21,943 bases of DNA from contig JAGVCW010000022.1 in the NCBI GenBank assembly GCA_020059045.1, positions 1-21,943 of the forward strand, read 5' to 3'. The translations under genes and the position numbers were made by a program. Origin of the DNA: Minisyncoccota bacterium. GTDB taxonomy: Bacteria; Patescibacteriota; Minisyncoccia; Phycocordibacterales; Zambryskibacteraceae. The notes under the pieces are model-generated. The model worked only from the letters and a program-made list of their open reading frames with translations, had not been told where the DNA came from and did no database searches. Of the stretch, positions 321-8,139 are shown piece after piece. Position 1 is the stretch's first letter; every line of letters begins with the position of its first letter.

Positions 321-1562
321 ATGAAGCCAGAATCACTCTTCAAGGCCCTTTTCTGGGTCCTGTGGATATTGGCATTACTTTTTAGTCCAGTATCCACAAT
401 CACTATCTCAGCCATAATTCTCTCGGTTGGATGGATTCTCAGGCGAATGGCAGATAAGGAGAAGCTGTGGGGTTTCATACCGGCAAACACATTTGCATTG
501 ATTACTCCTCGAGGAAATAACGATCCTCATGTCACTAAAGAGGAAGTGACAAGCGCCGACATTGTAGATGTTTTACATGCGGTACCTGGCAAAAGATTGG
601 ACAAAACCAGCAAGAATAGCATGGAGTGGACTTTTGTTGATGGCCAAGAGGAACGTGGTTTGATAGGTTGGATTCTTTTCAAAACTCTTGGTATCCAATG
701 GATAGGCTTGTACCGCACTAGACGAACTAACCTTGTAAAGGAGTTTGTCTTTGGGAGAGATGAAAATCAATCAAGTTACATTGTTGCTCCTAAGGACAAG
801 ACAAGTAAAGATGTTTTCTTTTCCGGAAGTCAGGCTGTTATCGTCCCTCGAGTAGAGATGGCTGACGCTCTTGGTCTTACTATTGCTTTCATCACGATCC
901 TGGAGCGAACCCAACCAGTCAAGTCTGTGATGCGGGTTGCGGATTCAAATGCCAATCTGTCTGCCAAAGCACGGAAAAAGGTGCTTCGTAATGCCGGCAC
1001 TGTTACCGCACAAGATTTCATTGGTGGTCCAAACAGTGCTCAACACAAGGAAAAGTTGGAAATAGAAATACGTGATCTTTCGTCCAAGGACGTTGGAATT
1101 ATACCCGAAGCTCTGCAGGAACTCGGGCTGACAATAACTTCTGCCGACCTAGAAGATGTTGATTATGATGCTACGACTAAAGCACTTCTCCAACAAAAGA
1201 CCGCTGCACGAATCGCTGGAGAGGCTAAAGTAATTGAAGCGCTAGCAGATAGAGACGCAAAGTTTGCACGCATCGAAGCTGAAACTGCAGAAGTTAACAA
1301 AGTCATTCTCCCCCAGGCAAGAACTGCTGGAGCTGCCCGTATTCGCGAAGCGATGGCCTACGAGAAAAATAGTACAGTTCGTACGTTTGCACCAGGTGGC
1401 CGCGGTGGTTTAGGGATTATTACAGGAGATACGGAGAACGATTCCACTACTCGTCCTAGAGGCGGGGCAAACCCCGGAAGAGGATTGTCAGCGGCTCCTG
1501 AACCCACAGAACCTGCACAAACGACTCCATCTGATCCTACGGCAGTAGTGCCAAGTAAGTAG
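321..1562 (+). CDS. SPFH/band-7 (stomatin/HflK-like) family membrane protein with an N-terminal TM anchor and a Pro/Thr/Gly-rich C-terminal tail
   Basis: Strong AAGGAG ribosome-binding site. N-terminal hydrophobic helices (FWVLWILALLF...ISAIILSVGWIL). The central region (VIVPRVEMADALGLTIAFITILERT ... QQKTAARIAGEAKVIEALADRDAKFARIEAETAE) resembles the SPFH beta-sheet followed by an Ala/Glu-rich coiled helix. The C-terminal tail is low-complexity. Confidence 0.55.
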   Translation: MKPESLFKALFWVLWILALLFSPVSTITISAIILSVGWILRRMADKEKLWGFIPANTFALITPRGNNDPHVTKEEVTSADIVDVLHAVPGKRLDKTSKNSMEWTFVDGQEERGLIGWILFKTLGIQWIGLYRTRRTNLVKEFVFGRDENQSSYIVAPKDKTSKDVFFSGSQAVIVPRVEMADALGLTIAFITILERTQPVKSVMRVADSNANLSAKARKKVLRNAGTVTAQDFIGGPNSAQHKEKLEIEIRDLSSKDVGIIPEALQELGLTITSADLEDVDYDATTKALLQQKTAARIAGEAKVIEALADRDAKFARIEAETAEVNKVILPQARTAGAARIREAMAYEKNSTVRTFAPGGRGGLGIITGDTENDSTTRPRGGANPGRGLSAAPEPTEPAQTTPSDPTAVVPSK

Positions 1563-1687: not shown

Positions 1688-3298
1688 ATGTCTGACCGCA
1701 TAAGGAATTGGTTAGTGCGAGTTATCGACCGCTTGGAGAATCACTTGCGAAATCGTCGGATTAGGAACGCGGCACGAGGGCAGCCTACACAGTCGACTTG
1801 GTGGCCAGCAGGGCTAAGGAGAGACCCAGCGACAATAATGACAGCCCTACTTCTGGCAGTAGTTTCGGTAGTTGCAATTTTTCAGCTTAGCAAACTACCA
1901 TCTGTTATCAGTGGAATTTTCAAATCTGGTGAGGATGCCTGCTTGACTGCTGATCTTGCAAGATCTGCTGGAAGGGTGGACGCAATCGCCGAAGCCGCAT
2001 GTGCGGCACACCGCGAGCCGATAGAGTGGGCAGTATTGGGGCTTCGAGCTCTCGTTGTTATTGTAGTAATTATTATCCTCGTATTAGTGTGGAAATTTGT
2101 TCGTAGGCGATGGATGAGACCTACTGCAGCTCCTACTGCTACAGCAGGAGCTGCAGTAGCAACTCCAAGAGGAGCGGGAACATCAGGAATTTCATGGAAG
2201 TATGTTGGTGTACTAGCTCCTATTGCTGTTTTCTTCATCTTCAGTTGGGCACTGTACGCCTTTTGGGCTGAGTTCAGTGGTGAAGCTGGAAGAAGTTATT
2301 TCTGGAACGAATGGTTCTGGAGCACAAACTTCTGGCTACTGCTCATAATTGCACTAGCAGCATGGATCGGAGCGTTCTTCGTCAGCAATAAAGCTTTCAT
2401 TCCTTATGTTGTGGTGATCGTTATTGTAGCCCTAGCTACAACGTACAAAGACATCCGAGAAGGTCTCGCTGGCAAAGTGGTAGCAGGACCACTGCCGGGT
2501 GTAGTCGTCGCATCCGCGGTTGCTACTTTCCCGGAGAACCCGAGTGATAAGTGGAGAACTGCCGATCTTGATTCGGCTCGTACATATCTCGATTTTCCAC
2601 AGGACTCGATGTTTCTCGAGATCTTTGCGTGTGAGTCGAGCGGTATTCACTACACCGATTCTGCACGCACAGAGGTGTTACGAGGGAGGGTTGATAGCTC
2701 CGATGTGGGTATTGCTCAAAACAATGAGCGAATCCATAGAGATCTACTTGATTCCCTTGCAGCAAGTCCGGACTCAGCGGAATATTATGACATATACACC
2801 ATCCGGGGTAATGTCAATTTCGCTAAACACCTGCGATATCGCAAGATCCGCGCAGGAAGAACCGGTCTTCGGATTTACGAAGACTGGAATGCTTCTCGTC
2901 ACTGTTGGGAAAGACATGAGGGTAGCCGGTCGCGTACTGTCGAGCAACAGGTGGTAGAGTCTCCATTTGGCCCACCTCCATCACCGGATCCAATCAGATT
3001 CGTTGATAGGAAGCTTGTAATCCCAGCCGGAGACACAAGCTGGACAAACACGATAACTAGGCCAAGTATGGAGTATGAAGTCTATTGGAATACGGGAGGA
3101 CCATCATATATCGACCTCATTGCTCTCGTAAATGGGCGAGACACAGTAAGTCTGAATGCGAGCGTTGCATACAGGCCGATACGGAACTTCCGTTCGATAT
3201 CGTATAGGACAAGGGTACCTGTAGAGATCCCTGTTGAAATTTATGTCTGTATGCTCAGGCGTAACGAGGCACGGATCCTAGCACAATGTACTGATTAG
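1688..3298 (+). CDS. hypothetical polytopic membrane protein, about 5-6 TM helices, with an Ala/Thr-rich linker and a roughly 270-aa soluble C-terminal domain
   Basis: The ORF is 536 aa with a ribosome-binding site. Hydrophobic segments: TALLLAVVSVVAIF, LVVIVVIIILVLVW, VGVLAPIAVFFIFSWALYAFW, FWLLLIIALAAWIGAFFV and IPYVVVIVIVALATT. No recognisable catalytic motif. GC is elevated relative to most of the window. Confidence 0.6.
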   Translation: MSDRIRNWLVRVIDRLENHLRNRRIRNAARGQPTQSTWWPAGLRRDPATIMTALLLAVVSVVAIFQLSKLPSVISGIFKSGEDACLTADLARSAGRVDAIAEAACAAHREPIEWAVLGLRALVVIVVIIILVLVWKFVRRRWMRPTAAPTATAGAAVATPRGAGTSGISWKYVGVLAPIAVFFIFSWALYAFWAEFSGEAGRSYFWNEWFWSTNFWLLLIIALAAWIGAFFVSNKAFIPYVVVIVIVALATTYKDIREGLAGKVVAGPLPGVVVASAVATFPENPSDKWRTADLDSARTYLDFPQDSMFLEIFACESSGIHYTDSARTEVLRGRVDSSDVGIAQNNERIHRDLLDSLAASPDSAEYYDIYTIRGNVNFAKHLRYRKIRAGRTGLRIYEDWNASRHCWERHEGSRSRTVEQQVVESPFGPPPSPDPIRFVDRKLVIPAGDTSWTNTITRPSMEYEVYWNTGGPSYIDLIALVNGRDTVSLNASVAYRPIRNFRSISYRTRVPVEIPVEIYVCMLRRNEARILAQCTD

Positions 3299-3369: not shown

Positions 3370-4338
3370 TTAATATGAAATTTTATTAACCACTCTTCCC
3401 TCTTTATCAAATAAAGTTATTGTTTCTCTTTCGTTTGCCCACATCTCCCATGACTTATTTAGATAAACTCTCCACTCGGGTAGATAGAAATCTTTGTCTT
3501 CCGAGTGTAGAGCTACACAGGACTCATATGAATAGTGACTTGCAATGAAGGCTTTACACTGGCTTGAGAGCCCGCAAACACCGTCGACACATCCCCGCTC
3601 AATATTGTTTCCTATTCGAGTTGAATCCTTTTCCTTGGGCGTGCGACATGTTGCCATAGATCTGACAAACTTATAACAGTCATCATCCAGACTTTCTACT
3701 CCCACTTCGGCGGCCGGATACGGGCAACTAGTATACATGTATGGGTAGAATTCATAAGTGGGAAGATTTTCAAGATACCCACTGCACTTGTTTACTTTAA
3801 AACTTGTTACAACAAATGGATTCTTGTTCTGGACATCACCAGTTATGATGGCTGCTTTCTCCCCTTTACCAAGAATTATAGGGCCAAGAAAATTTGACCC
3901 TTTAGTAATAAACAATTTTGCAGCTTGAGGTATTACTGCAACATCAGATTGAAGTTTCACTTGGTTCCCACCTAGGTTCGTAAACTTATTTCCTTTGCCA
4001 TTTGAAAGAGACCAACCAGTTATATTTACTCCCTCTACTGGCACATCTTGCGCATATAAATATATGTATTCTCTGGAAGGCTGTATTTCATATGTATTGC
4101 CTGATTGTATAGTAACTTTTCCATACCAAGGAGAAGCGTTGCCCTCGGACAATGTTGTGTTCCCAATTTGGCTACTTGATCCACTGGACGAATAAACACT
4201 TGTAGATGTTGTTCCAATGAGAGGACCTCCCATACTTGGGATAAACTTGCCCCGGCCAAGAAGCATAAGAAATATCACTGCCACTATCCCTATGATAAAC
4301 AGTACGTCTTCCCCTTTTGAGTAATTTGCTTTAAACAT
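3370..4338 (-). CDS. hypothetical N-terminally anchored extracellular protein with a Ser-rich linker and a Cys-rich C-terminal domain, positioned directly downstream of the pilin-like array
   Basis: The ORF is 322 aa. N-terminal TM (LFIIGIVAVIFLMLL), then SSSGSSS linker. There are 9 Cys in the last ~130 aa (CSGY, CPYP, DDDCYKF, ATCRTP, GCVDGVCGLSSQCKAF, ESCVALH). A putative own promoter, TTGTAA-17-TATTCT, lies on the minus strand in 4339-4412. Confidence 0.6.
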   Translation of the reverse strand: MFKANYSKGEDVLFIIGIVAVIFLMLLGRGKFIPSMGGPLIGTTSTSVYSSSGSSSQIGNTTLSEGNASPWYGKVTIQSGNTYEIQPSREYIYLYAQDVPVEGVNITGWSLSNGKGNKFTNLGGNQVKLQSDVAVIPQAAKLFITKGSNFLGPIILGKGEKAAIITGDVQNKNPFVVTSFKVNKCSGYLENLPTYEFYPYMYTSCPYPAAEVGVESLDDDCYKFVRSMATCRTPKEKDSTRIGNNIERGCVDGVCGLSSQCKAFIASHYSYESCVALHSEDKDFYLPEWRVYLNKSWEMWANERETITLFDKEGRVVNKISY

Positions 4339-4411
4339 TAAAGTAATTGTAATTTAGAATACTTTAAAATATTGCTTCTTACAATTAGCTTATGACCTTG
4401 CATTTCTTAAC

Positions 4412-4443
4412 AAAAGACCCCGCCTAGGCGGGGTCTTTTGTTA
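4412..4443. terminator. bidirectional Rho-independent terminator
   Basis: AAAA-GACCCCGCC-tag-GGCGGGGTC-TTTTGTT is a 9-bp GC-rich stem flanked by an A-run and a T-run. It ends the minus-strand pilin operon. Confidence 0.8.
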
Positions 4444-4492
4444 ATCATCATTCGTTATTCCTTATTCTCTATTCTTTATATCTTATTCTTCT
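4444..4492 (-). repeat. heptad-periodic purine tract, (NNN)GAAT repeated about 5 times on the minus strand, between the stop codon and the terminator; repeat family copy 1
   Basis: On the plus strand, ATTC occurs at 4450, 4457, 4464 and 4471 with period 7, and again at 4485. The reverse complement, GAAGAATAAGATATAAAGAATAGAGAATAAGGA, matches 14291-14323 at 30 of 33 positions. Confidence 0.6.
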
Positions 4493-4759
4493 TCAAAACG
4501 GAAATCTACCTGAAATATTTACACCGATTGTGTCCATAACAATCCTTATGATTCCGTAGACTCCGAACATTATAAACATTCCAATAACACCCCATAGCAT
4601 GTTTTTCTGACCTTGCTCTCGGTTCTTAGCATCTTCTGTATTAGTAAGGAATTGGAATATCCCCCACAGAAATACTAGGAGTGCTATCGCAAACATAAGG
4701 AGAATGAGTGGGTTTAAGATAAACTGATTTATCTTACCCAAAAACGGAGCAATGGACAT
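4493..4759 (-). CDS. TrbC/VirB2-like pilin-family small membrane protein, paralog 6, lacking the signal peptide and ectodomain
   Basis: Two TM helices separated by a charged loop (FLWGIFQFLTNTEDAKNREQGQKNMLWGVIGMFIMFGVYGII) match the family core of the upstream paralogs. It lies 15 nt after paralog 5. Confidence 0.5.
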   Translation of the reverse strand: MSIAPFLGKINQFILNPLILLMFAIALLVFLWGIFQFLTNTEDAKNREQGQKNMLWGVIGMFIMFGVYGIIRIVMDTIGVNISGRFPF

Positions 4760-4774
4760 GAGAAATGACTACCT

Positions 4775-5122
4775 CTATATTGCTGGGGGCTGGATTATTC
4801 CGCCACCACCCGTACCTGTTTCTGTCTGAAGAAGCTGAACGATCCCCCATACTGAAACCATAATGAATATTGCAACTATTCCCCAAATCATGATTTTCTT
4901 TCCTTCTTCTCTTTTGTCTTCATTTCCTGCGGCAAGAACAAATTTCATTAAACCCCATAGGAAAAACAGGAATGCGAGGCCGATGACGACTGGTGTTGCC
5001 ATATTGATAAGACCCCTGATCTGACTGATAACGCTCTGGGTATAGTTAAAAGTTGGATTCCCTACAGCAAGCACAATTGCTGGAAGTAGGAAACTGGCGC
5101 CAAGAGCAATAAACTTTTTCAT
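4775..5122 (-). CDS. TrbC/VirB2-like pilin-family protein with signal peptide, short ectodomain and TM hairpin; paralog 5
   Basis: Signal peptide MKKFIALGASFLLPAIVLAVG. Core PVVIGLAFLFFLWGLMKFVLAAGNEDKREEGKKIMIWGIVAIFIMVSVWGIV. Gly-rich C-terminal tail. Own minus-strand promoter at 5180-5208. Confidence 0.65.
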   Translation of the reverse strand: MKKFIALGASFLLPAIVLAVGNPTFNYTQSVISQIRGLINMATPVVIGLAFLFFLWGLMKFVLAAGNEDKREEGKKIMIWGIVAIFIMVSVWGIVQLLQTETGTGGGGIIQPPAI

Positions 5123-5179
5123 TGTTTGATAAAATTAAATAATAAAATACGTTTTAGTTATACCTAGTGGTATAGGCTT

Positions 5180-5208
5180 ATAATACAAGGATTTAATGCA
5201 AAATTCAA
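5180..5208 (-). promoter_or_regulatory. internal sigma70-type promoter, TTGAAT-17-TATTAT on the minus strand, inside the pilin array
   Basis: Reverse complement of 5203-5208 is TTGAAT, and of 5180-5185 is TATTAT, with a 17-nt spacer. Located in the 117-nt gap between paralogs 4 and 5. Confidence 0.5.
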
Positions 5209-5239
5209 GGGAAGTGTGGATAAAAAAGTGAAAGACAGA

Positions 5240-5557
5240 TTACGGTCCAATGATATAAGTGCTAAGCCCAAACTCAAATCTAAGTAACCAGACTATCCCC
5301 CAAACAGATACCATTATAAAAAGTGCTATAACACCCCAAGTCATTAACCTCTTTCCTTCTGTTCTTTTCTCTTCGTTACCTGAATTTAAGATAAAGTTTG
5401 CTAGCCCCCATAGGAAAAATAAGAAGGCGAGGCCGATGACGACTGGAAAAGCTAAGTTTAATACATTTCTGAATTCTGTGATTACTCCCTGTATACCTTG
5501 AGCCGCAACAAAAACGGGTAGAAAGGATGTGAGAATTAGAAAAAATCTATAGATCAT
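5240..5557 (-). CDS. TrbC/VirB2-like pilin-family protein, paralog 4
   Basis: Signal peptide MIYRFFLILTSFLPVFVAAQG. Core PVVIGLAFLFFLWGLANFILNSGNEEKRTEGKRLMTWGVIALFIMVSVWGIV is near-identical to paralog 5. A roughly 45-nt stretch (about 5404-5447) is about 85-90% identical to the corresponding stretch of paralog 5 (about 4949-4992). Confidence 0.65.
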   Translation of the reverse strand: MIYRFFLILTSFLPVFVAAQGIQGVITEFRNVLNLAFPVVIGLAFLFFLWGLANFILNSGNEEKRTEGKRLMTWGVIALFIMVSVWGIVWLLRFEFGLSTYIIGP

Positions 5558-5562
5558 TTAAG

Positions 5563-6024
5563 TTATGAAGTTCGAAGAAATGGAAACGCCAAATTACCCC
5601 CAAAAAAATCACTAAAAAGAATACTTACAATTCCCCAAACTGATACCATTACAAAGAGTCCTATCGCCCCCCAGAACATAAGACTCTTGCCCGCACTTAC
5701 TTTCTTCTCATCTCCTGCTGCCAAAACAAATCTCATAAGTCCCCAGAGAAAGACGAAAAACGCTAATCCTATGACAACTGGTATAAGTGAATTAATTAGA
5801 CCCACGAGTAAGCAAACAAATTCTGTGAAGTTACCAGGTTGCGTGCCTGGAGCAGTATTCCCATATGAGGGACACACTGAAGAAGAGGCCGGAGATGGAG
5901 AAGTGTTAACGGGGATAGGAAAACCGGCAAAAGCTTGCACGGGTAGAGATAGAATAATAATTAATATTACAAAGCAAGCTACGTAACTCCTCACCAAATT
6001 TATTTTGAATCTACTCGTATACAT
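5563..6024 (-). CDS. TrbC/VirB2-like pilin-family protein with an extended Pro/Ser-rich ectodomain carrying a Cys pair; paralog 3
   Basis: Signal peptide, then SPSPASSSVCPSYGNTAPGTQPGNFTEFVC with two Cys, then core PVVIGLAFFVFLWGLMRFVLAAGDEKKVSAGKSLMFWGAIGLFVMVSVWGIV. AAGGA ribosome-binding site. Lies 5 nt from paralog 4. Confidence 0.65.
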   Translation of the reverse strand: MYTSRFKINLVRSYVACFVILIIILSLPVQAFAGFPIPVNTSPSPASSSVCPSYGNTAPGTQPGNFTEFVCLLVGLINSLIPVVIGLAFFVFLWGLMRFVLAAGDEKKVSAGKSLMFWGAIGLFVMVSVWGIVSILFSDFFGGNLAFPFLRTS

Positions 6025-6027
6025 ATT

Positions 6028-6420
6028 TTATGGTCCTTGAAGTTGGTTCACTGTTGCTTGTATAGCCAAAGCTATTGCCCATGAGCCTAGAAGTATAAGG
6101 GCTCCAATGACTGAGGAGAAAAACGCACTTTTCGCACTCTTAAGTTTAGTTTCATCTCCACGTGCAGTAACAAACAGAAACCCTGCATAAATAATAGCAA
6201 GTGTAACTATTACCCCTCCAATAGGAAGTATCACGTCATTAATAACAGCAACTATGAAGTCGTAGAGTGTACCAGGAGCATTTCGGAGAGGATTGGGAAT
6301 ACAGACACTACCTTGAGGACATGGCGCGGATCCACCTGTATTACCCGCAAACACAATTCCTGGAATATAAACTACCAAGATAATGAGAAGAGAGAGAAGC
6401 ATTGTAAAAAGTTTTTTCAT
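6028..6420 (-). CDS. TrbC/VirB2-like pilin-family protein, the more classical VirB2-like variant with a Cys pair; paralog 2
   Basis: Signal peptide MKKLFTMLLSLLIILVVYIPGIVFAG. The ectodomain holds CPQGSVC. TM hairpin: IVTLAIIYAGFLFVTARGDETKLKSAKSAFFSSVIGALILLGSWAIALAI. Lies 3 nt from paralog 3. Confidence 0.6.
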   Translation of the reverse strand: MKKLFTMLLSLLIILVVYIPGIVFAGNTGGSAPCPQGSVCIPNPLRNAPGTLYDFIVAVINDVILPIGGVIVTLAIIYAGFLFVTARGDETKLKSAKSAFFSSVIGALILLGSWAIALAIQATVNQLQGP

Positions 6421-6445
6421 AAATAATTAATTCTTGCTTTAATAC

Positions 6446-6850
6446 TTAACCAAAAAGTGTAAACGGTTGATCAAGGAGAGCAACTGCAATAAATTTCACA
6501 ATAAGCCACGCGGCAAGTATAAAGAAGAAACCAATCATAGTATTTGTAAATATTCCTTTTGCCCTCTTAATTTTATCATCTGCTCCCCCTGCTGTAACCA
6601 TGAGAAAACCAGCTACGATAAACGCTATTGCTGCGAGTGGTACAGAGTAAAGTATTATGATGTTCATAATATTTATACCCAATGTGATTAGTGAGCCAAA
6701 GGTACAGGGGTCATCAAACTTGTTTTTAGTAGTATTAAAATTTGTATTGCAAACTATTAAGTTCGTATCCACAGCGAGAGTTGTAAGTGGCACGAGAAAT
6801 ACTACAATAATCAAAAAGAAACTTAGAGAAAATGTTAGTGAAGATTTCAT
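6446..6850 (-). CDS. TrbC/VirB2-like pilin-family protein, paralog 1; its start overlaps the stop of the upstream solute-binding-protein gene
   Basis: Signal peptide, an ectodomain with two Cys (LIVCNTNF...DDPCTFG), and the hairpin AAIAFIVAGFLMVTAGGADDKIKRAKGIFTNTMIGFFFILAAWLIV. The ATG (6848-6850) overlaps the TAA (6850-6852) of the 6850-8139 gene as TAATG. Confidence 0.6.
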   Translation of the reverse strand: MKSSLTFSLSFFLIIVVFLVPLTTLAVDTNLIVCNTNFNTTKNKFDDPCTFGSLITLGINIMNIIILYSVPLAAIAFIVAGFLMVTAGGADDKIKRAKGIFTNTMIGFFFILAAWLIVKFIAVALLDQPFTLFG

Positions 6851-8139
6851 TATTTGAAGAGATTTTCAAGCTCTGCACCTGCTTGGTTAATGGCAACATC
6901 CATCCTAACTCTTCCTCCCGTCACAGACTCAACCAAACGCAAGAAAATTTGATCTGTTGCCACGTTATCTGGGTCTAACCACCCCTGCGACCATAGTGCT
7001 CCATCGTAAAGTACGGGCCGCACTGCATCCGTTTGGCGCTCTGACAACAAGTCCCGACGTGCTGGAGCTATACCTAGCGATTCTGCCATAACTTTTACAA
7101 TGTCTTTACTTATTAATTCAGAAATAAAAGCGAAAGCTCCTGCGATATTTTGAGAATTTTTGACAATTGCAAGTCCTGTCATGTTGCCATACGTAATCTT
7201 TTTTATACCAGTACGTGACTGCGGGAAATTTGCAATATCAAAATTAAGATTTGGGTTCTTGATCTTTAAATACGAATACCTTGAGCCAAAATCGAAGTAG
7301 ACCGCTAGATCTCCAGCAAGAAATGCGGTTTCCGAAAGTGGAAGAGAGCGATTCCATGAGTAGAAGGGTTTAGCGGGGTTAGAAAATTCTGTATAGAAGG
7401 AAAGTGCTGCACTTGTGGGTAAAACCGGTGTGTTAAAGGATTTTCGAAGCACACCCGTCGCTACTCCATTTTCTATAGCAACTATTGGATTACCAGCTTG
7501 CATTATAAGAGCCGCCAGAATTTCCTTAGAATTTGAAATATTTTTATATTCACCAAGCGCGACCGTTGAACGAGTTACATTAAAAGCACTGTCTTTAGTA
7601 GTAAGAGCACCTGACAATGCGAAATATTCATCCCAAAATGTTGGCGGTGAAGCAAGCCCCGCGTCAGAAAAAATGTTTTTATTCCAATACATTACAAGAG
7701 GATCAATAGAGACTGGTAGTGCCAGTGCCCCAGCAGGTGTAAGGAAAATACTTCCCTCCTCAACAAACGTATCTCTGTAAGTTCTCTCTGAAATACTCTC
7801 AAAAGGAATGGTAAGTAGCTTGTTACGATTTTTGTAAACATTGTCATGAGATATGAAAATGACATCAGGTCCCACACCTTCAGCAAGGGCCTCTACAAAA
7901 TCACTATCAAAATTTTCTTCAGATTTCTCAACATAAGTCACTACTAAAGTCTGATCCTTAGATAGCTGTGATTGCCCCCAAATTTGAGAAAAAACAGACT
8001 GCGGCATGGTACCCCAGACAGTTATACTGCCACCTTCCTCCCCTCGCCCCCTACCCCCAGCTGCAAACAAAATGACACCGATAATGATAAAGGCTACAAA
8101 GACTCCAATAAATATGAGCTGAAATCTGCTTGTGGTCAT
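6850..8139 (-). CDS. extracellular solute-binding protein of ABC-type family 1 (MalE-like fold), TM-anchored, with no adjacent permease or ATPase
   Basis: N-terminal TM anchor. GPDVIFISHD resembles MalE GPDIIFWAHD. ALPVSIDPLVMYWNKNIF...PPTFWDEYFAL resembles [31 protein letters not shown]. The C-terminal DQIFLRLVESVTGG is typical of family-1 solute-binding proteins. Confidence 0.7.
   Translation of the reverse strand: MTTSRFQLIFIGVFVAFIIIGVILFAAGGRGRGEEGGSITVWGTMPQSVFSQIWGQSQLSKDQTLVVTYVEKSEENFDSDFVEALAEGVGPDVIFISHDNVYKNRNKLLTIPFESISERTYRDTFVEEGSIFLTPAGALALPVSIDPLVMYWNKNIFSDAGLASPPTFWDEYFALSGALTTKDSAFNVTRSTVALGEYKNISNSKEILAALIMQAGNPIVAIENGVATGVLRKSFNTPVLPTSAALSFYTEFSNPAKPFYSWNRSLPLSETAFLAGDLAVYFDFGSRYSYLKIKNPNLNFDIANFPQSRTGIKKITYGNMTGLAIVKNSQNIAGAFAFISELISKDIVKVMAESLGIAPARRDLLSERQTDAVRPVLYDGALWSQGWLDPDNVATDQIFLRLVESVTGGRVRMDVAINQAGAELENLFK

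What the first reader, a model, noticed from the sequence alone, without database searches (positions are those of the whole stretch)
3370..8139. Six tandem TrbC/VirB2-like pilin paralogs headed by an orphan ABC-type solute-binding protein and trailed by a Cys-rich anchored protein, with no type IV secretion machinery
The minus strand carries, in order: a family-1 (MalE-fold) solute-binding protein with a TM anchor but no permease or ATPase; six small proteins; a bidirectional terminator; and a separately promoted 322-aa N-anchored protein with a 9-Cys ectodomain. Five of the six small proteins have a signal peptide, a variable ectodomain and a conserved helix-loop-helix hairpin (FLWG...AAGNE.KR.EGK..M.WG.IA.FIMVSVWGIV). 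This is the architecture of conjugative TrbC/VirB2 pilins, which occur in multiple copies in many Patescibacteria. No VirB4, VirB6, VirB11, VirD4 or relaxase lies within 22 kb, so this is not a conjugation locus. It may instead be a surface filament or adhesion module whose tip or base is a ligand-binding SBP-fold protein. Three paralogs carry a Cys pair in the ectodomain, reminiscent of the disulfide-bonded loop of type IV pilins. For an epibiotic or host-attached small-genome organism, this is a plausible host-interaction apparatus and looks undescribed as a unit.
Basis: partly seen in the sequence, partly recalled or inferred. Interest (0 to 1): 0.8.

Follow-up and report, generated by a model that had tools for sequence, protein, structure and literature searches.

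The report
Sugar-binding protein heading a pilin operon
A membrane-anchored sugar-binding-type protein and six different small pilin-like proteins form one operon that is kept intact in hundreds of ultra-small Paceibacteria genomes, away from the secretion machine that probably assembles the pilins, which suggests an undescribed host-contact module.

Summary
On the minus strand, a TM-anchored MalE-fold solute-binding protein (SBP, 6850-8139) is followed by six small ORFs. All six match Pfam PF18895 (T4SS_pilin), five of them above the curated threshold. A palindromic terminator follows, then a separately transcribed LTD/Cys-rich protein with 8 Cys, not 9.

The SBP-plus-pilin unit is real and conserved. 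In 63 of 63 related Paceibacteria loci with enough sequence, the SBP is followed within 70 nt by 4-8 pilin genes. At least 581 species genomes encode this SBP. The array is differentiated rather than a recent amplification: types 1, 2 and the last member keep fixed positions.

No ABC ATPase lies next to the SBP in any locus.

"No T4SS" is true only locally. All five relatives covered by a published survey encode VirB4 elsewhere.

The Cys-rich protein is an occasional neighbour, not part of the unit.

Pilin arrays in Patescibacteria are already published. I found no description of an SBP-headed, VirB4-detached, fixed-order operon.

Extras: a conserved internal promoter with a DnaA-box-like site, and one relative whose type-2 pilin carries a 2,000-aa adhesin.

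Verdict: new variant of a known kind. The SBP's role is unproven.

The parts
6850..8139 (-). Membrane-anchored MalE-fold solute-binding protein (429 aa). It has a conserved N-terminal TM helix (aa 5-27), a Gly-rich linker and a two-lobe SBP domain. It is the first gene of the operon.
   Evidence: Pfam SBP_bac_1/SBP_bac_8 at E~5e-15. AF2 model pLDDT 87.6. Foldseek matches oligosaccharide SBPs and MalE at E~1e-21. hhalign to E. coli MalE gives 91%. The subfamily is discrete: 997 representatives at E<=1e-30. The TM helix is as conserved as the globular domain (0.70 vs 0.63).
6446..6850 (-). Pilin type 1 (134 aa): signal peptide, ectodomain with a conserved Cys pair, and a helix-loop-helix hairpin. 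Its start overlaps the SBP stop (TAATG).
   Evidence: PF18895 at 34.0 bits. The overlap is shown. It best-matches position 1 in 63/65 loci. The Cys pair is present in 53/65 orthologues.
6028..6420 (-). Pilin type 2 (130 aa), the most TrbC-like member, with an NPL(K/R) motif ahead of the hairpin.
   Evidence: PF18895 at 23.4 bits (below cut-off) and TrbC PF04956 at 19.7 bits. It takes position 2 in 62/65 loci. Its profile is homologous to the type-5 profile, hhalign 98%. The L053 orthologue is fused to a 2,000-aa adhesin.
5563..6024 (-). Pilin type 3 (153 aa), FLWG-type hairpin with a longer Pro/Ser-rich ectodomain and a Cys pair.
   Evidence: PF18895 at 32.7 bits. Position 3 in 53/65 loci. About 55% identical to types 4 and 5.
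5240..5557 (-). Pilin type 4 (105 aa), FLWG-type.
   Evidence: PF18895 at 46.0 bits. It is a middle-position paralogue whose copy number varies between loci.
5123..5239 (-). Intra-operon gap with a promoter-like site (-35 TTGAAT at 5208-5203, -10 TATTAT at 5185-5180). Directly upstream is the window's only perfect DnaA-box consensus, TTATCCACA (5215-5223).
   Evidence: Promoter-like site; DnaA-box search. The equivalent gap in 33/59 related loci carries ATCC[AC]CA against 1.9 expected, typically 80-105 nt upstream of the next pilin ATG, followed by TTG.../TATAAT-like hexamers.
4775..5122 (-). Pilin type 5 (115 aa), FLWG-type, first gene after the internal promoter. Candidate major subunit (inference).
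   Evidence: PF18895 at 50.0 bits, the best of the six. A ~115-aa protein holds the penultimate position in most loci. Its profile's only PDB hit below 0.01 is the conjugative pilin TraM in filament entry 8cw4 (E 0.0087).
4493..4759 (-). Pilin-like type 6 (88 aa): the hairpin alone, without a signal peptide. Last gene of the operon and the most conserved member per residue.
   Evidence: PF18895 at 29.9 bits. Last position in 59/65 loci. 0.95 bits per residue to orthologues. The only rival hit is a marginal PHROG holin match, E 0.007.
4409..4439 (.). Palindromic G+C-rich hairpin flanked by an A-run and a T-run. It is an intrinsic terminator usable from both directions and ends the operon.
   Evidence: Sequence read. 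Not listed by the pattern scan because the loop is shorter than 3 nt.
3370..4338 (-). Accessory neighbour, not a conserved part of the unit. It is a TM-anchored protein with a disordered linker, a lamin-tail Ig-like domain and a C-terminal domain with 8 Cys.
1688..3298 (+). Convergent neighbour, with only a possible link to the operon. It is a polytopic membrane protein with a lysozyme/Rpf-like motif (ACES...D.G..Q.N).
   Evidence: It is the first gene after the array in 23/60 loci. The family profile hits C-type lysozymes weakly (E 3.6e-4). Sequences are shown.

Best explanation
This is a conserved Paceibacteria operon. It encodes a differentiated set of VirB2-like pilin subunits and, as its first gene, a membrane-anchored MalE-fold glycan-binding protein.

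Shown:
- The seven genes form one tightly packed transcription unit that ends at an intrinsic terminator.
- The SBP-pilin junction is kept in every relative examined.
- The pilins fall into fixed-position types (1, 2 and last) plus 2-5 closely related middle copies.
- A conserved internal promoter lies before the penultimate pilin.

Inferred:
- The pilins are inserted into the membrane as helical hairpins. They are then assembled by the chromosomal MPF-FATA-like type IV secretion machine (VirB4/TrsD/VirB3) encoded elsewhere in the genome.
- The promoter-proximal ~115-aa pilin is the major subunit. Types 1-2, with their Cys-bonded or expandable ectodomains, are minor surface-exposed subunits.
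- The SBP-fold protein is held at the same membrane site by its unusually conserved TM helix. It recognises a host-derived or host-surface oligosaccharide, so the operon provides a contact or adhesion function for an epibiotic cell rather than classical ABC import.
For: Family assignment: six of six small ORFs hit PF18895. The type-2 and type-5 profiles are homologous, and the type-5 profile touches the solved conjugative pilin TraM.

Unit:
- The SBP is followed by 4-8 pilins in 63/63 loci, with the first pilin within 70 nt. This holds down to 36% SBP identity.
- The flanking adjacencies are less stable: the methyltransferase is upstream in 61/74 loci, and the lysozyme-like gene is downstream in 23/60.
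- The SBP stop and the first pilin start overlap as TAATG.

Differentiation: positional orthology and a conserved Cys pair in type 1.

Regulation: an internal promoter with a DnaA-box-like site, enriched about 17-fold across loci.

Machine elsewhere: VirB4 is listed as 'Yes' for all five relatives in Table S1 of PMC12102498. One of them lists VirB4, TrsD and VirB3 apart from a lone distant VirB2.

Essentiality: PF18895 pilins are essential inside the T4SS cluster of S. epibionticum (PMC10633639).

Surface display or adhesion: in L053 the type-2 pilin module is the C-terminal end of a 2,170-aa protein that has a signal peptide and Ig/cadherin/PKD repeats.

SBP not a standard importer part:
- No ABC ATPase lies next to it in 85 loci.
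- It belongs to a discrete subfamily with a full-length conserved TM helix.
- It has the fold of oligosaccharide binders.
Against: - No pilus has been seen in any Patescibacteria T4SS.
- The link between this array and the distant VirB4 cluster is inferred from co-occurrence in five genomes only.
- Gene overlap is common in these compact genomes. The methyltransferase also abuts the SBP, so tight spacing alone does not prove a shared function.
- All relatives share the same gyrA neighbourhood, so the synteny is partly inherited and is not independent evidence.
- Orphan SBPs that dock to distant ABC permeases are well known in monoderm bacteria.
- The complete genome of this organism is not available, so a CUT1 permease elsewhere cannot be excluded.
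- No SBP-pilin complex could be modelled.
Confidence: 0.5

Rival explanations
1. The SBP is an ordinary ABC-importer receptor for an oligosaccharide, and its permease and ATPase are encoded elsewhere. It sits in front of the pilin array only because this gene order was inherited in a streamlined genome. The two have no functional connection.
For: The fold and Pfam membership are canonical for family-1 SBPs. The whole block S1/MBL/gyrA/methyltransferase/SBP/pilins is syntenic in the same clade. The unrelated methyltransferase also overlaps or abuts the SBP in many loci.
Against: The SBP-pilin junction is the most stable adjacency of the region: 63/63, against 61/74 and 23/60 for the flanking junctions. 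No ABC ATPase lies within about 10 kb in any of 85 loci. The subfamily is discrete, and in every case examined it occurs in this context. The TM anchor is as conserved as the globular domain, which is not expected for a passive tether.
Confidence: 0.28
2. The pilin-like hairpins do not build a pilus and do not need the T4SS. They are small membrane proteins that anchor or organise surface structures, possibly forming with the SBP a membrane complex for display, sensing or uptake.
For: The array is detached from virB4. One member lacks a signal peptide. In L053 the hairpin serves as the C-terminal end of a giant adhesin-like protein. The SBP TM helix is conserved. No pilus has been shown experimentally in Patescibacteria; PMC10633639 speaks only of predicted pilin subunits.
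Against: All six belong to the family that sits inside, and is essential in, a Patescibacteria T4SS cluster. The profile touches a solved conjugative pilin. VirB4 is present in all five surveyed relatives.
Confidence: 0.15
3. The array is a variation cassette: redundant pilin paralogues used for antigenic or host-range variation, as proposed for VirB2 arrays in Patescibacteria, Bartonella and Anaplasma.
For: Within-array identity is low, 24-57% over the aligned stretches, as reported for such arrays (PMC12102498). The number of middle copies varies from locus to locus, giving 4-8 genes in total. The ectodomains are the variable part.
Against: Types 1, 2 and the last member keep their positions and identities across 59-63 of 65 loci. 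This points to non-redundant, long-maintained roles. No repeats or recombination signals were looked for, and none were noticed.
Confidence: 0.07

Closest known systems
VirB2-like pilin arrays of Patescibacteria T4SS. Examples are SEML1_0014-0019 in Ca. Southlakia epibionticum (PMC10633639) and the 441 arrays reported in PMC12102498.
   Same: Same Pfam family (PF18895). Tandem arrays of 2-11 genes with low mutual identity. No relaxase nearby. Epibiotic small-genome hosts.
   Different: Those arrays are described within or near the virB4 cluster and are reported as most abundant in Microgenomatia and Saccharimonadia. Here the array is in Paceibacteria, next to gyrA and away from virB4. It has a fixed order of types and is always headed by an SBP-fold gene. 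That survey's thresholds appear to have caught only one VirB2 away from virB4 in a genome that carries this operon. Neither paper's text mentions a solute-binding protein in this role.
Conjugative VirB2/TrbC pilins with a minor tip subunit, such as the Agrobacterium VirB2/VirB5 T-pilus and pKM101 TraM (PDB 8cw4). The T-pilus comparison rests on my own knowledge.
   Same: Signal peptide followed by two hydrophobic helices joined by a short charged loop. The profile gives a weak match to TraM. A major subunit plus minor surface-exposed partners is a plausible analogy.
   Different: The PF04956 threshold is not reached. There are six or more distinct subunits instead of one. There is no VirB5 homologue. 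The candidate accessory protein is a TM-anchored SBP fold. The host is monoderm-like, with an MPF-FATA-type machine that normally lacks pilins (PMC12102498).
Archaeal bindosome (Sulfolobus Bas system): sugar-binding proteins assembled at the surface together with small pilin-like proteins. From my own knowledge; not tested here.
   Same: It pairs oligosaccharide SBPs, which carry a conserved N-terminal hydrophobic helix, with several small pilin-like proteins in one functional unit.
   Different: Bindosome SBPs carry class III (type IV prepilin) signal peptides, and the small proteins are type IV pilin-like and assembled by PilB/PilC homologues. Here the SBP N-terminus lacks Gly at -1 and Glu at +5, and the small proteins are VirB2-type.
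PrgZ/TraC pheromone-binding SBPs of enterococcal conjugative plasmids. From my own knowledge.
   Same: An SBP-fold protein encoded with a monoderm type IV secretion (conjugation) system and lacking its own permease.
   Different: PrgZ is a family-5 peptide binder that feeds the chromosomal Opp permease for signalling. Here the SBP is a family-1 MalE-type protein placed directly in front of the pilin genes.

Membership tests
Pfam PF18895 T4SS_pilin (Patescibacteria VirB2-like pilins) | HMM score at or above the gathering threshold (26.6 bits) | tested here: met
   Five of six ORFs score 29.9-50.0 bits. ORF 6028-6420 scores 23.4 bits, but its orthologue profile is homologous to the type-5 profile at 98%.
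Pfam PF18895 T4SS_pilin (Patescibacteria VirB2-like pilins) | Signal peptide followed by two hydrophobic helices joined by a short charged loop | tested here: met
   Seen in the alignment of the six ORFs and in hydrophobic-segment counts of orthologues. The 88-aa last member has the hairpin but no signal peptide.
Pfam PF04956 TrbC/VirB2 (classical conjugative pilins) | HMM score at or above the gathering threshold (27.9 bits) | tested here: not met
   Only ORF 6028-6420 hits, at 19.7 bits. The type-5 profile hits pilin TraM (8cw4) at E 0.0087 only.
Type IV secretion system pilin (functional sense) | Encoded with, or dependent on, VirB4/VirB6-type machinery | tested here: inconclusive
   None in the 21.9-kb contig. 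Five of five relatives in PMC12102498 Table S1 are VirB4-positive, with the cluster elsewhere in the genome. This organism's own genome is unavailable.
Type IV secretion system pilin (functional sense) | Polymerises into an extracellular filament | not testable with these tools
   Needs cryo-EM, cryo-ET or immunolabelling.
Patescibacteria VirB2 arrays as defined in PMC12102498 | 2-11 pilin genes in tandem with low mutual identity (mean 25%, maximum 54%) | tested here: met
   Six in tandem, with pairwise identity of 24-57% over the aligned stretches. Relatives have 4-8.
ABC transporter family-1 (MalE/CUT1-type) solute-binding protein | SBP_bac_1/SBP_bac_8 HMM above threshold and a two-lobe MalE fold | tested here: met
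   56.9 and 56.5 bits against cut-offs of 26 and 27. AF2 pLDDT 87.6. Foldseek E~1e-21 to oligosaccharide SBPs. hhalign to MalE 91%.
ABC transporter family-1 (MalE/CUT1-type) solute-binding protein | Encoded with its permease and ATPase genes | tested here: not met
   None in the window. A Walker A plus LSGGQ scan of all ORFs in 85 related loci found no adjacent ABC ATPase. The Pfam tables of L001-L005 and L086 show no BPD_transp_1.
ABC transporter family-1 (MalE/CUT1-type) solute-binding protein | Binds a ligand and docks to a permease | not testable with these tools
   Needs ligand screening and complete genomes.
Archaeal-type bindosome SBP | Class III (prepilin) signal peptide: small residue at -1, conserved hydrophobic helix, often Glu at +5 | tested here: not met
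   The consensus is [ST][KR]-F-Q-[LIV]-[LIV]-x-T-G, with Lys/Arg at the would-be -1 position and no Glu at +5.
Lamin tail domain (PF00932) protein, for ORF 3370-4338 | LTD Ig-like beta-sandwich | tested here: met

The most novel reading that the evidence does not exclude
The SBP-fold protein is a structural and functional component of a VirB2-type surface filament. Its conserved N-terminal helix would pack with the pilin hairpins, placing a glycan-binding head at the tip or base. The type IV secretion-derived pilus would then act as a host-glycan receptor or nutrient-capture organelle, a bacterial VirB2-based counterpart of the archaeal bindosome. Its expression would be tied to the replication cycle through a DnaA-box-controlled pilin promoter.
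Probability: 0.22. Interest if true: 0.85.

Novelty: new variant of a known kind. Interest (0 to 1): 0.6.

Why it matters
Patescibacteria make up a large share of bacterial diversity and appear to live attached to hosts. How they recognise and hold on to a host is known only for a few Saccharibacteria, through type IV pili.

PF18895 pilins are essential in the one species tested genetically, yet their structure and partners are unknown.

This operon is conserved in at least 581 species genomes. It couples a differentiated pilin set to a ligand-binding protein, and in one relative to a giant adhesin. That gives concrete, testable candidates for the host-recognition end of the Patescibacteria type IV secretion apparatus.

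It also shows that published surveys, which required proximity to virB4 or stricter thresholds, probably under-count these arrays in Paceibacteria, the largest class.

Tried and rejected
- Exact look-up of the window's SBP found no record. The window is the whole contig, so the organism's own genome could not be checked for VirB4 or ABC permeases.
- A word-indexed homologue search with pilin 1 returned only itself. Pilin orthologues were therefore collected with my own HMM on fetched loci.
Rejected.
- NCBIfam gave only sub-threshold hits to the mycoplasma ICE pilin-like family Mbov_0395. These are consistent with the pilin reading but do not establish membership.
- Class III (prepilin-type) signal on the SBP, which would make it a bindosome-like protein: rejected on sequence.
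- Rfam found no known RNA family in the window.
- PDB profile search with type-2 pilins gave nothing meaningful.
- Cys-rich protein as tip or anchor of the unit: rejected, because homologues occur in unrelated contexts.
- The pattern scan for terminators missed the real hairpin after the array; it was found by reading the sequence.
- Multimer modelling of the SBP with the pilins was not possible with the tools.
- SBP relatives below about 36% identity could not be listed. Whether the SBP-pilin link exists outside the gyrA-syntenic clade therefore remains open.

Full report
**What is there**

- The 429-aa protein (6850-8139) matches SBP_bac_1 and SBP_bac_8 well above the Pfam cut-offs.
- Its AlphaFold model (pLDDT 87.6) has an N-terminal TM helix (aa 5-27), a low-confidence Gly-rich linker and a two-lobe domain.
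- That domain matches oligosaccharide-binding proteins and MalE (Foldseek E~1e-21, 16-18% identity; hhalign to MalE 91%).
- All six following ORFs hit PF18895 'T4SS_pilin'. Five are above the gathering score; the sixth (6028-6420) is just below and also gives a weak TrbC/VirB2 hit.
- Five have a signal-peptide-like N-terminus. The last, 88-aa ORF is the bare helix-loop-helix hairpin.
PHROGs gives only a marginal holin hit for the 88-aa ORF.

**Operon boundaries**

- The SBP stop and the first pilin start overlap (TAATG).
- The other junctions are 3-25 nt, except for one 117-nt gap before the fifth pilin.
- A perfect palindromic G+C hairpin with an A-run and a T-run follows the sixth pilin (4409-4439, read).

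**The window has no secretion machine**

- Every ORF of at least 110 aa was scanned against Pfam.
- The neighbours are housekeeping genes: GyrA, a methyltransferase, an MBL-fold protein, S1, Pth, signal peptidase, an aminoacyl-tRNA synthetase, YbeY and FtsA.
- A convergent pair is also present: an SPFH protein and a polytopic membrane protein.
- The window is the entire contig.

**Is the SBP-pilin unit real?**

- The SBP belongs to a discrete subfamily. Among 1.84 billion representatives, 2,838 match at E<=1e-3 and 997 at E<=1e-30, and the best 150 are nearly all full length with the match starting in the TM helix.
- In contigs of homologues at 64, 56, 50 and 36% identity, the SBP is followed by five or six PF18895 genes.
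- I built a pilin HMM and applied it to 85 loci. In all 63 non-duplicate loci with more than 3 kb downstream, the SBP is followed on the same strand by 4-8 pilin ORFs. The first starts within 70 nt, and six or seven is the commonest number.
- The flanking adjacencies are less stable. The methyltransferase lies directly upstream in 61/74 loci, and the lysozyme-like gene follows the array in 23/60.
- No ORF with ABC ATPase motifs lies next to the SBP in any locus.
- Caveat: all these genomes share the gyrA neighbourhood. The synteny is therefore partly inherited, and tight gene spacing is common in these compact genomes.

**The array is differentiated, not a recent amplification**

- Window pilin 1 finds its best match at position 1 in 63/65 loci.
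- Pilin 2 matches position 2 in 62/65, pilin 3 matches position 3 in 53/65, and pilin 6 matches the last position in 59/65.
- Pilins 3-5 are about 55% identical to each other, and their copy number varies.
- The Cys pair of type 1 is present in 53/65 orthologues.
- The type-2 and type-5 profiles are clearly homologous (hhalign 98%).
- The type-5 profile's only PDB hit below 0.01 is TraM, a conjugative pilin solved in a filament (8cw4).
- In locus L053 the type-2 module forms the C-terminal 100 residues of a 2,170-aa protein. That protein has a signal peptide and He_PIG, Big_9, cadherin-like, PKD and fn3 repeats.
- L053 therefore shows that the region ahead of the hairpin can be expanded into a large set of adhesin-type repeats. 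Together with the signal peptide, this suggests it is displayed outside the cell.

**Internal regulation**

- The 117-nt gap holds a sigma-70-like promoter.
- Immediately upstream is the window's only perfect TTATCCACA, the DnaA-box consensus.
- In 33 of 59 related loci the equivalent gap carries ATCC[AC]CA, against about 1.9 expected. It usually lies 80-105 nt before the pilin ATG and is followed by -35 and -10-like hexamers.

**The machine is elsewhere**

- PMC12102498 surveyed 3,035 Patescibacteria genomes. All five assemblies that hold my loci and appear in its Table S1 are VirB4-positive.
- For GCA_000996025.1, Table S3 lists VirB4, TrsD and VirB3 together, one VirB2 nearby, a T4CP, and a single VirB2 far from virB4.
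- That paper places Paceibacteria virB4 clusters near dnaA/dnaN.
- It reports 441 VirB2 arrays, mostly in other classes, and its text never mentions a solute-binding protein.
- Wang et al. (PMC10633639) found PF18895 pilins essential inside the T4SS cluster of S. epibionticum. Their text and supplementary tables report no SBP in that cluster.
- No paper combined Patescibacteria, solute-binding and T4SS.

**The Cys-rich protein**

- It has 8 Cys, six of them invariant.
- Its family is small, with 35 proteins.
- A homologue lies near the array in only 5 loci, and two other homologues sit in unrelated contexts.
- It is an occasional neighbour, not part of the unit.

**Interpretation**

- The best-supported reading is a detached, differentiated pilin operon for the chromosomal T4SS-like apparatus, co-expressed with a TM-anchored glycan-binding protein used in host contact.
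- The SBP's TM helix is as conserved as its globular domain (0.70 vs 0.63, with the linker at 0.34). That hints at specific contacts within the membrane.
- The main rival is that the SBP simply serves a distant ABC importer.
- Whether the SBP physically joins the pilins could not be tested.

**Novelty**

Pilin arrays are known. I did not find this SBP-headed, fixed-order, virB4-detached operon, its internal DnaA-box-like promoter, or the adhesin-pilin fusion described anywhere in the searchable literature.

Noticed in passing
window 5180-5223 (minus strand); equivalent gaps in L001-L085: The window's only perfect DnaA-box consensus (TTATCCACA) sits just upstream of a promoter-like site inside the pilin array. 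The core ATCC[AC]CA recurs in the same gap in 33/59 related loci against about 1.9 expected, usually 80-105 nt before the pilin start.
   Followed up: partly
L053:9747-16259 (+): The fourth member of this locus's array is a 2,170-aa protein. It has a signal peptide, He_PIG/Big_9/cadherin-like/PKD/fn3 repeats, a Pro/Ser/Thr linker and a C-terminal type-2 pilin module (aa 2070-2165). This is a giant adhesin ending in a VirB2-like hairpin.
   Followed up: partly
window 1688-3298 (+) and 321-1562 (+): A convergent gene pair lies beyond the array. One gene is a polytopic membrane protein with a lysozyme/Rpf-like ACES...G..Q motif, whose family profile hits C-type lysozymes at E 3.6e-4. The other is an SPFH/Band 7 protein. 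The lysozyme-like gene is the first gene after the array in 23/60 relatives. This stretch also has higher G+C (0.44-0.49) than the rest of the window (about 0.39).
   Followed up: partly
window 5123-5175 (minus strand) and related loci: In the leader of the penultimate pilin, many relatives carry an AAGGTCGTT-like motif about 25-45 nt upstream of the ATG. The closest relatives and the window have a small ATACC...GGTAT hairpin there. No Rfam family matches.
   Followed up: no
window 8053-8127 (SBP residues 5-29): The SBP's N-terminal TM helix ([ST][KR]FQ[LIV]..TG.F..FI..GV..F) is at least as conserved as the globular domain, while the linker after it is not. It loosely recalls a prepilin N-terminus but lacks Gly at -1 and Glu at +5.
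   Followed up: partly
PMC12102498 Table S3, genome GCA_000996025.1 (holds L079): The published T4SS survey lists only one VirB2 away from virB4 in a genome that carries this multi-gene array. Its thresholds therefore probably under-count SBP-linked arrays in Paceibacteria.
   Followed up: partly
PMC10633639 supplementary table, gene SEML1_0634: In S. epibionticum, a family-5 peptide SBP listed next to secG and tRNA genes is scored essential or growth-defective by Tn-seq. This may be a precedent for an important SBP in Patescibacteria that has no adjacent permease.
   Followed up: no
window 6446-6850 (-): The public gene call for pilin 1 is 115 aa (86% of the 134-aa ORF), so the deposited annotation starts at a later codon and trims the signal peptide.
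   Followed up: no
record titles of L006-L085: Many TPA assemblies that carry this Paceibacteria-type locus are titled 'uncultured Candidatus Saccharibacteria bacterium'. Their gene content and synteny match Zambryskibacteria/Paceibacteria records, so the titles look like generic labels.
   Followed up: no
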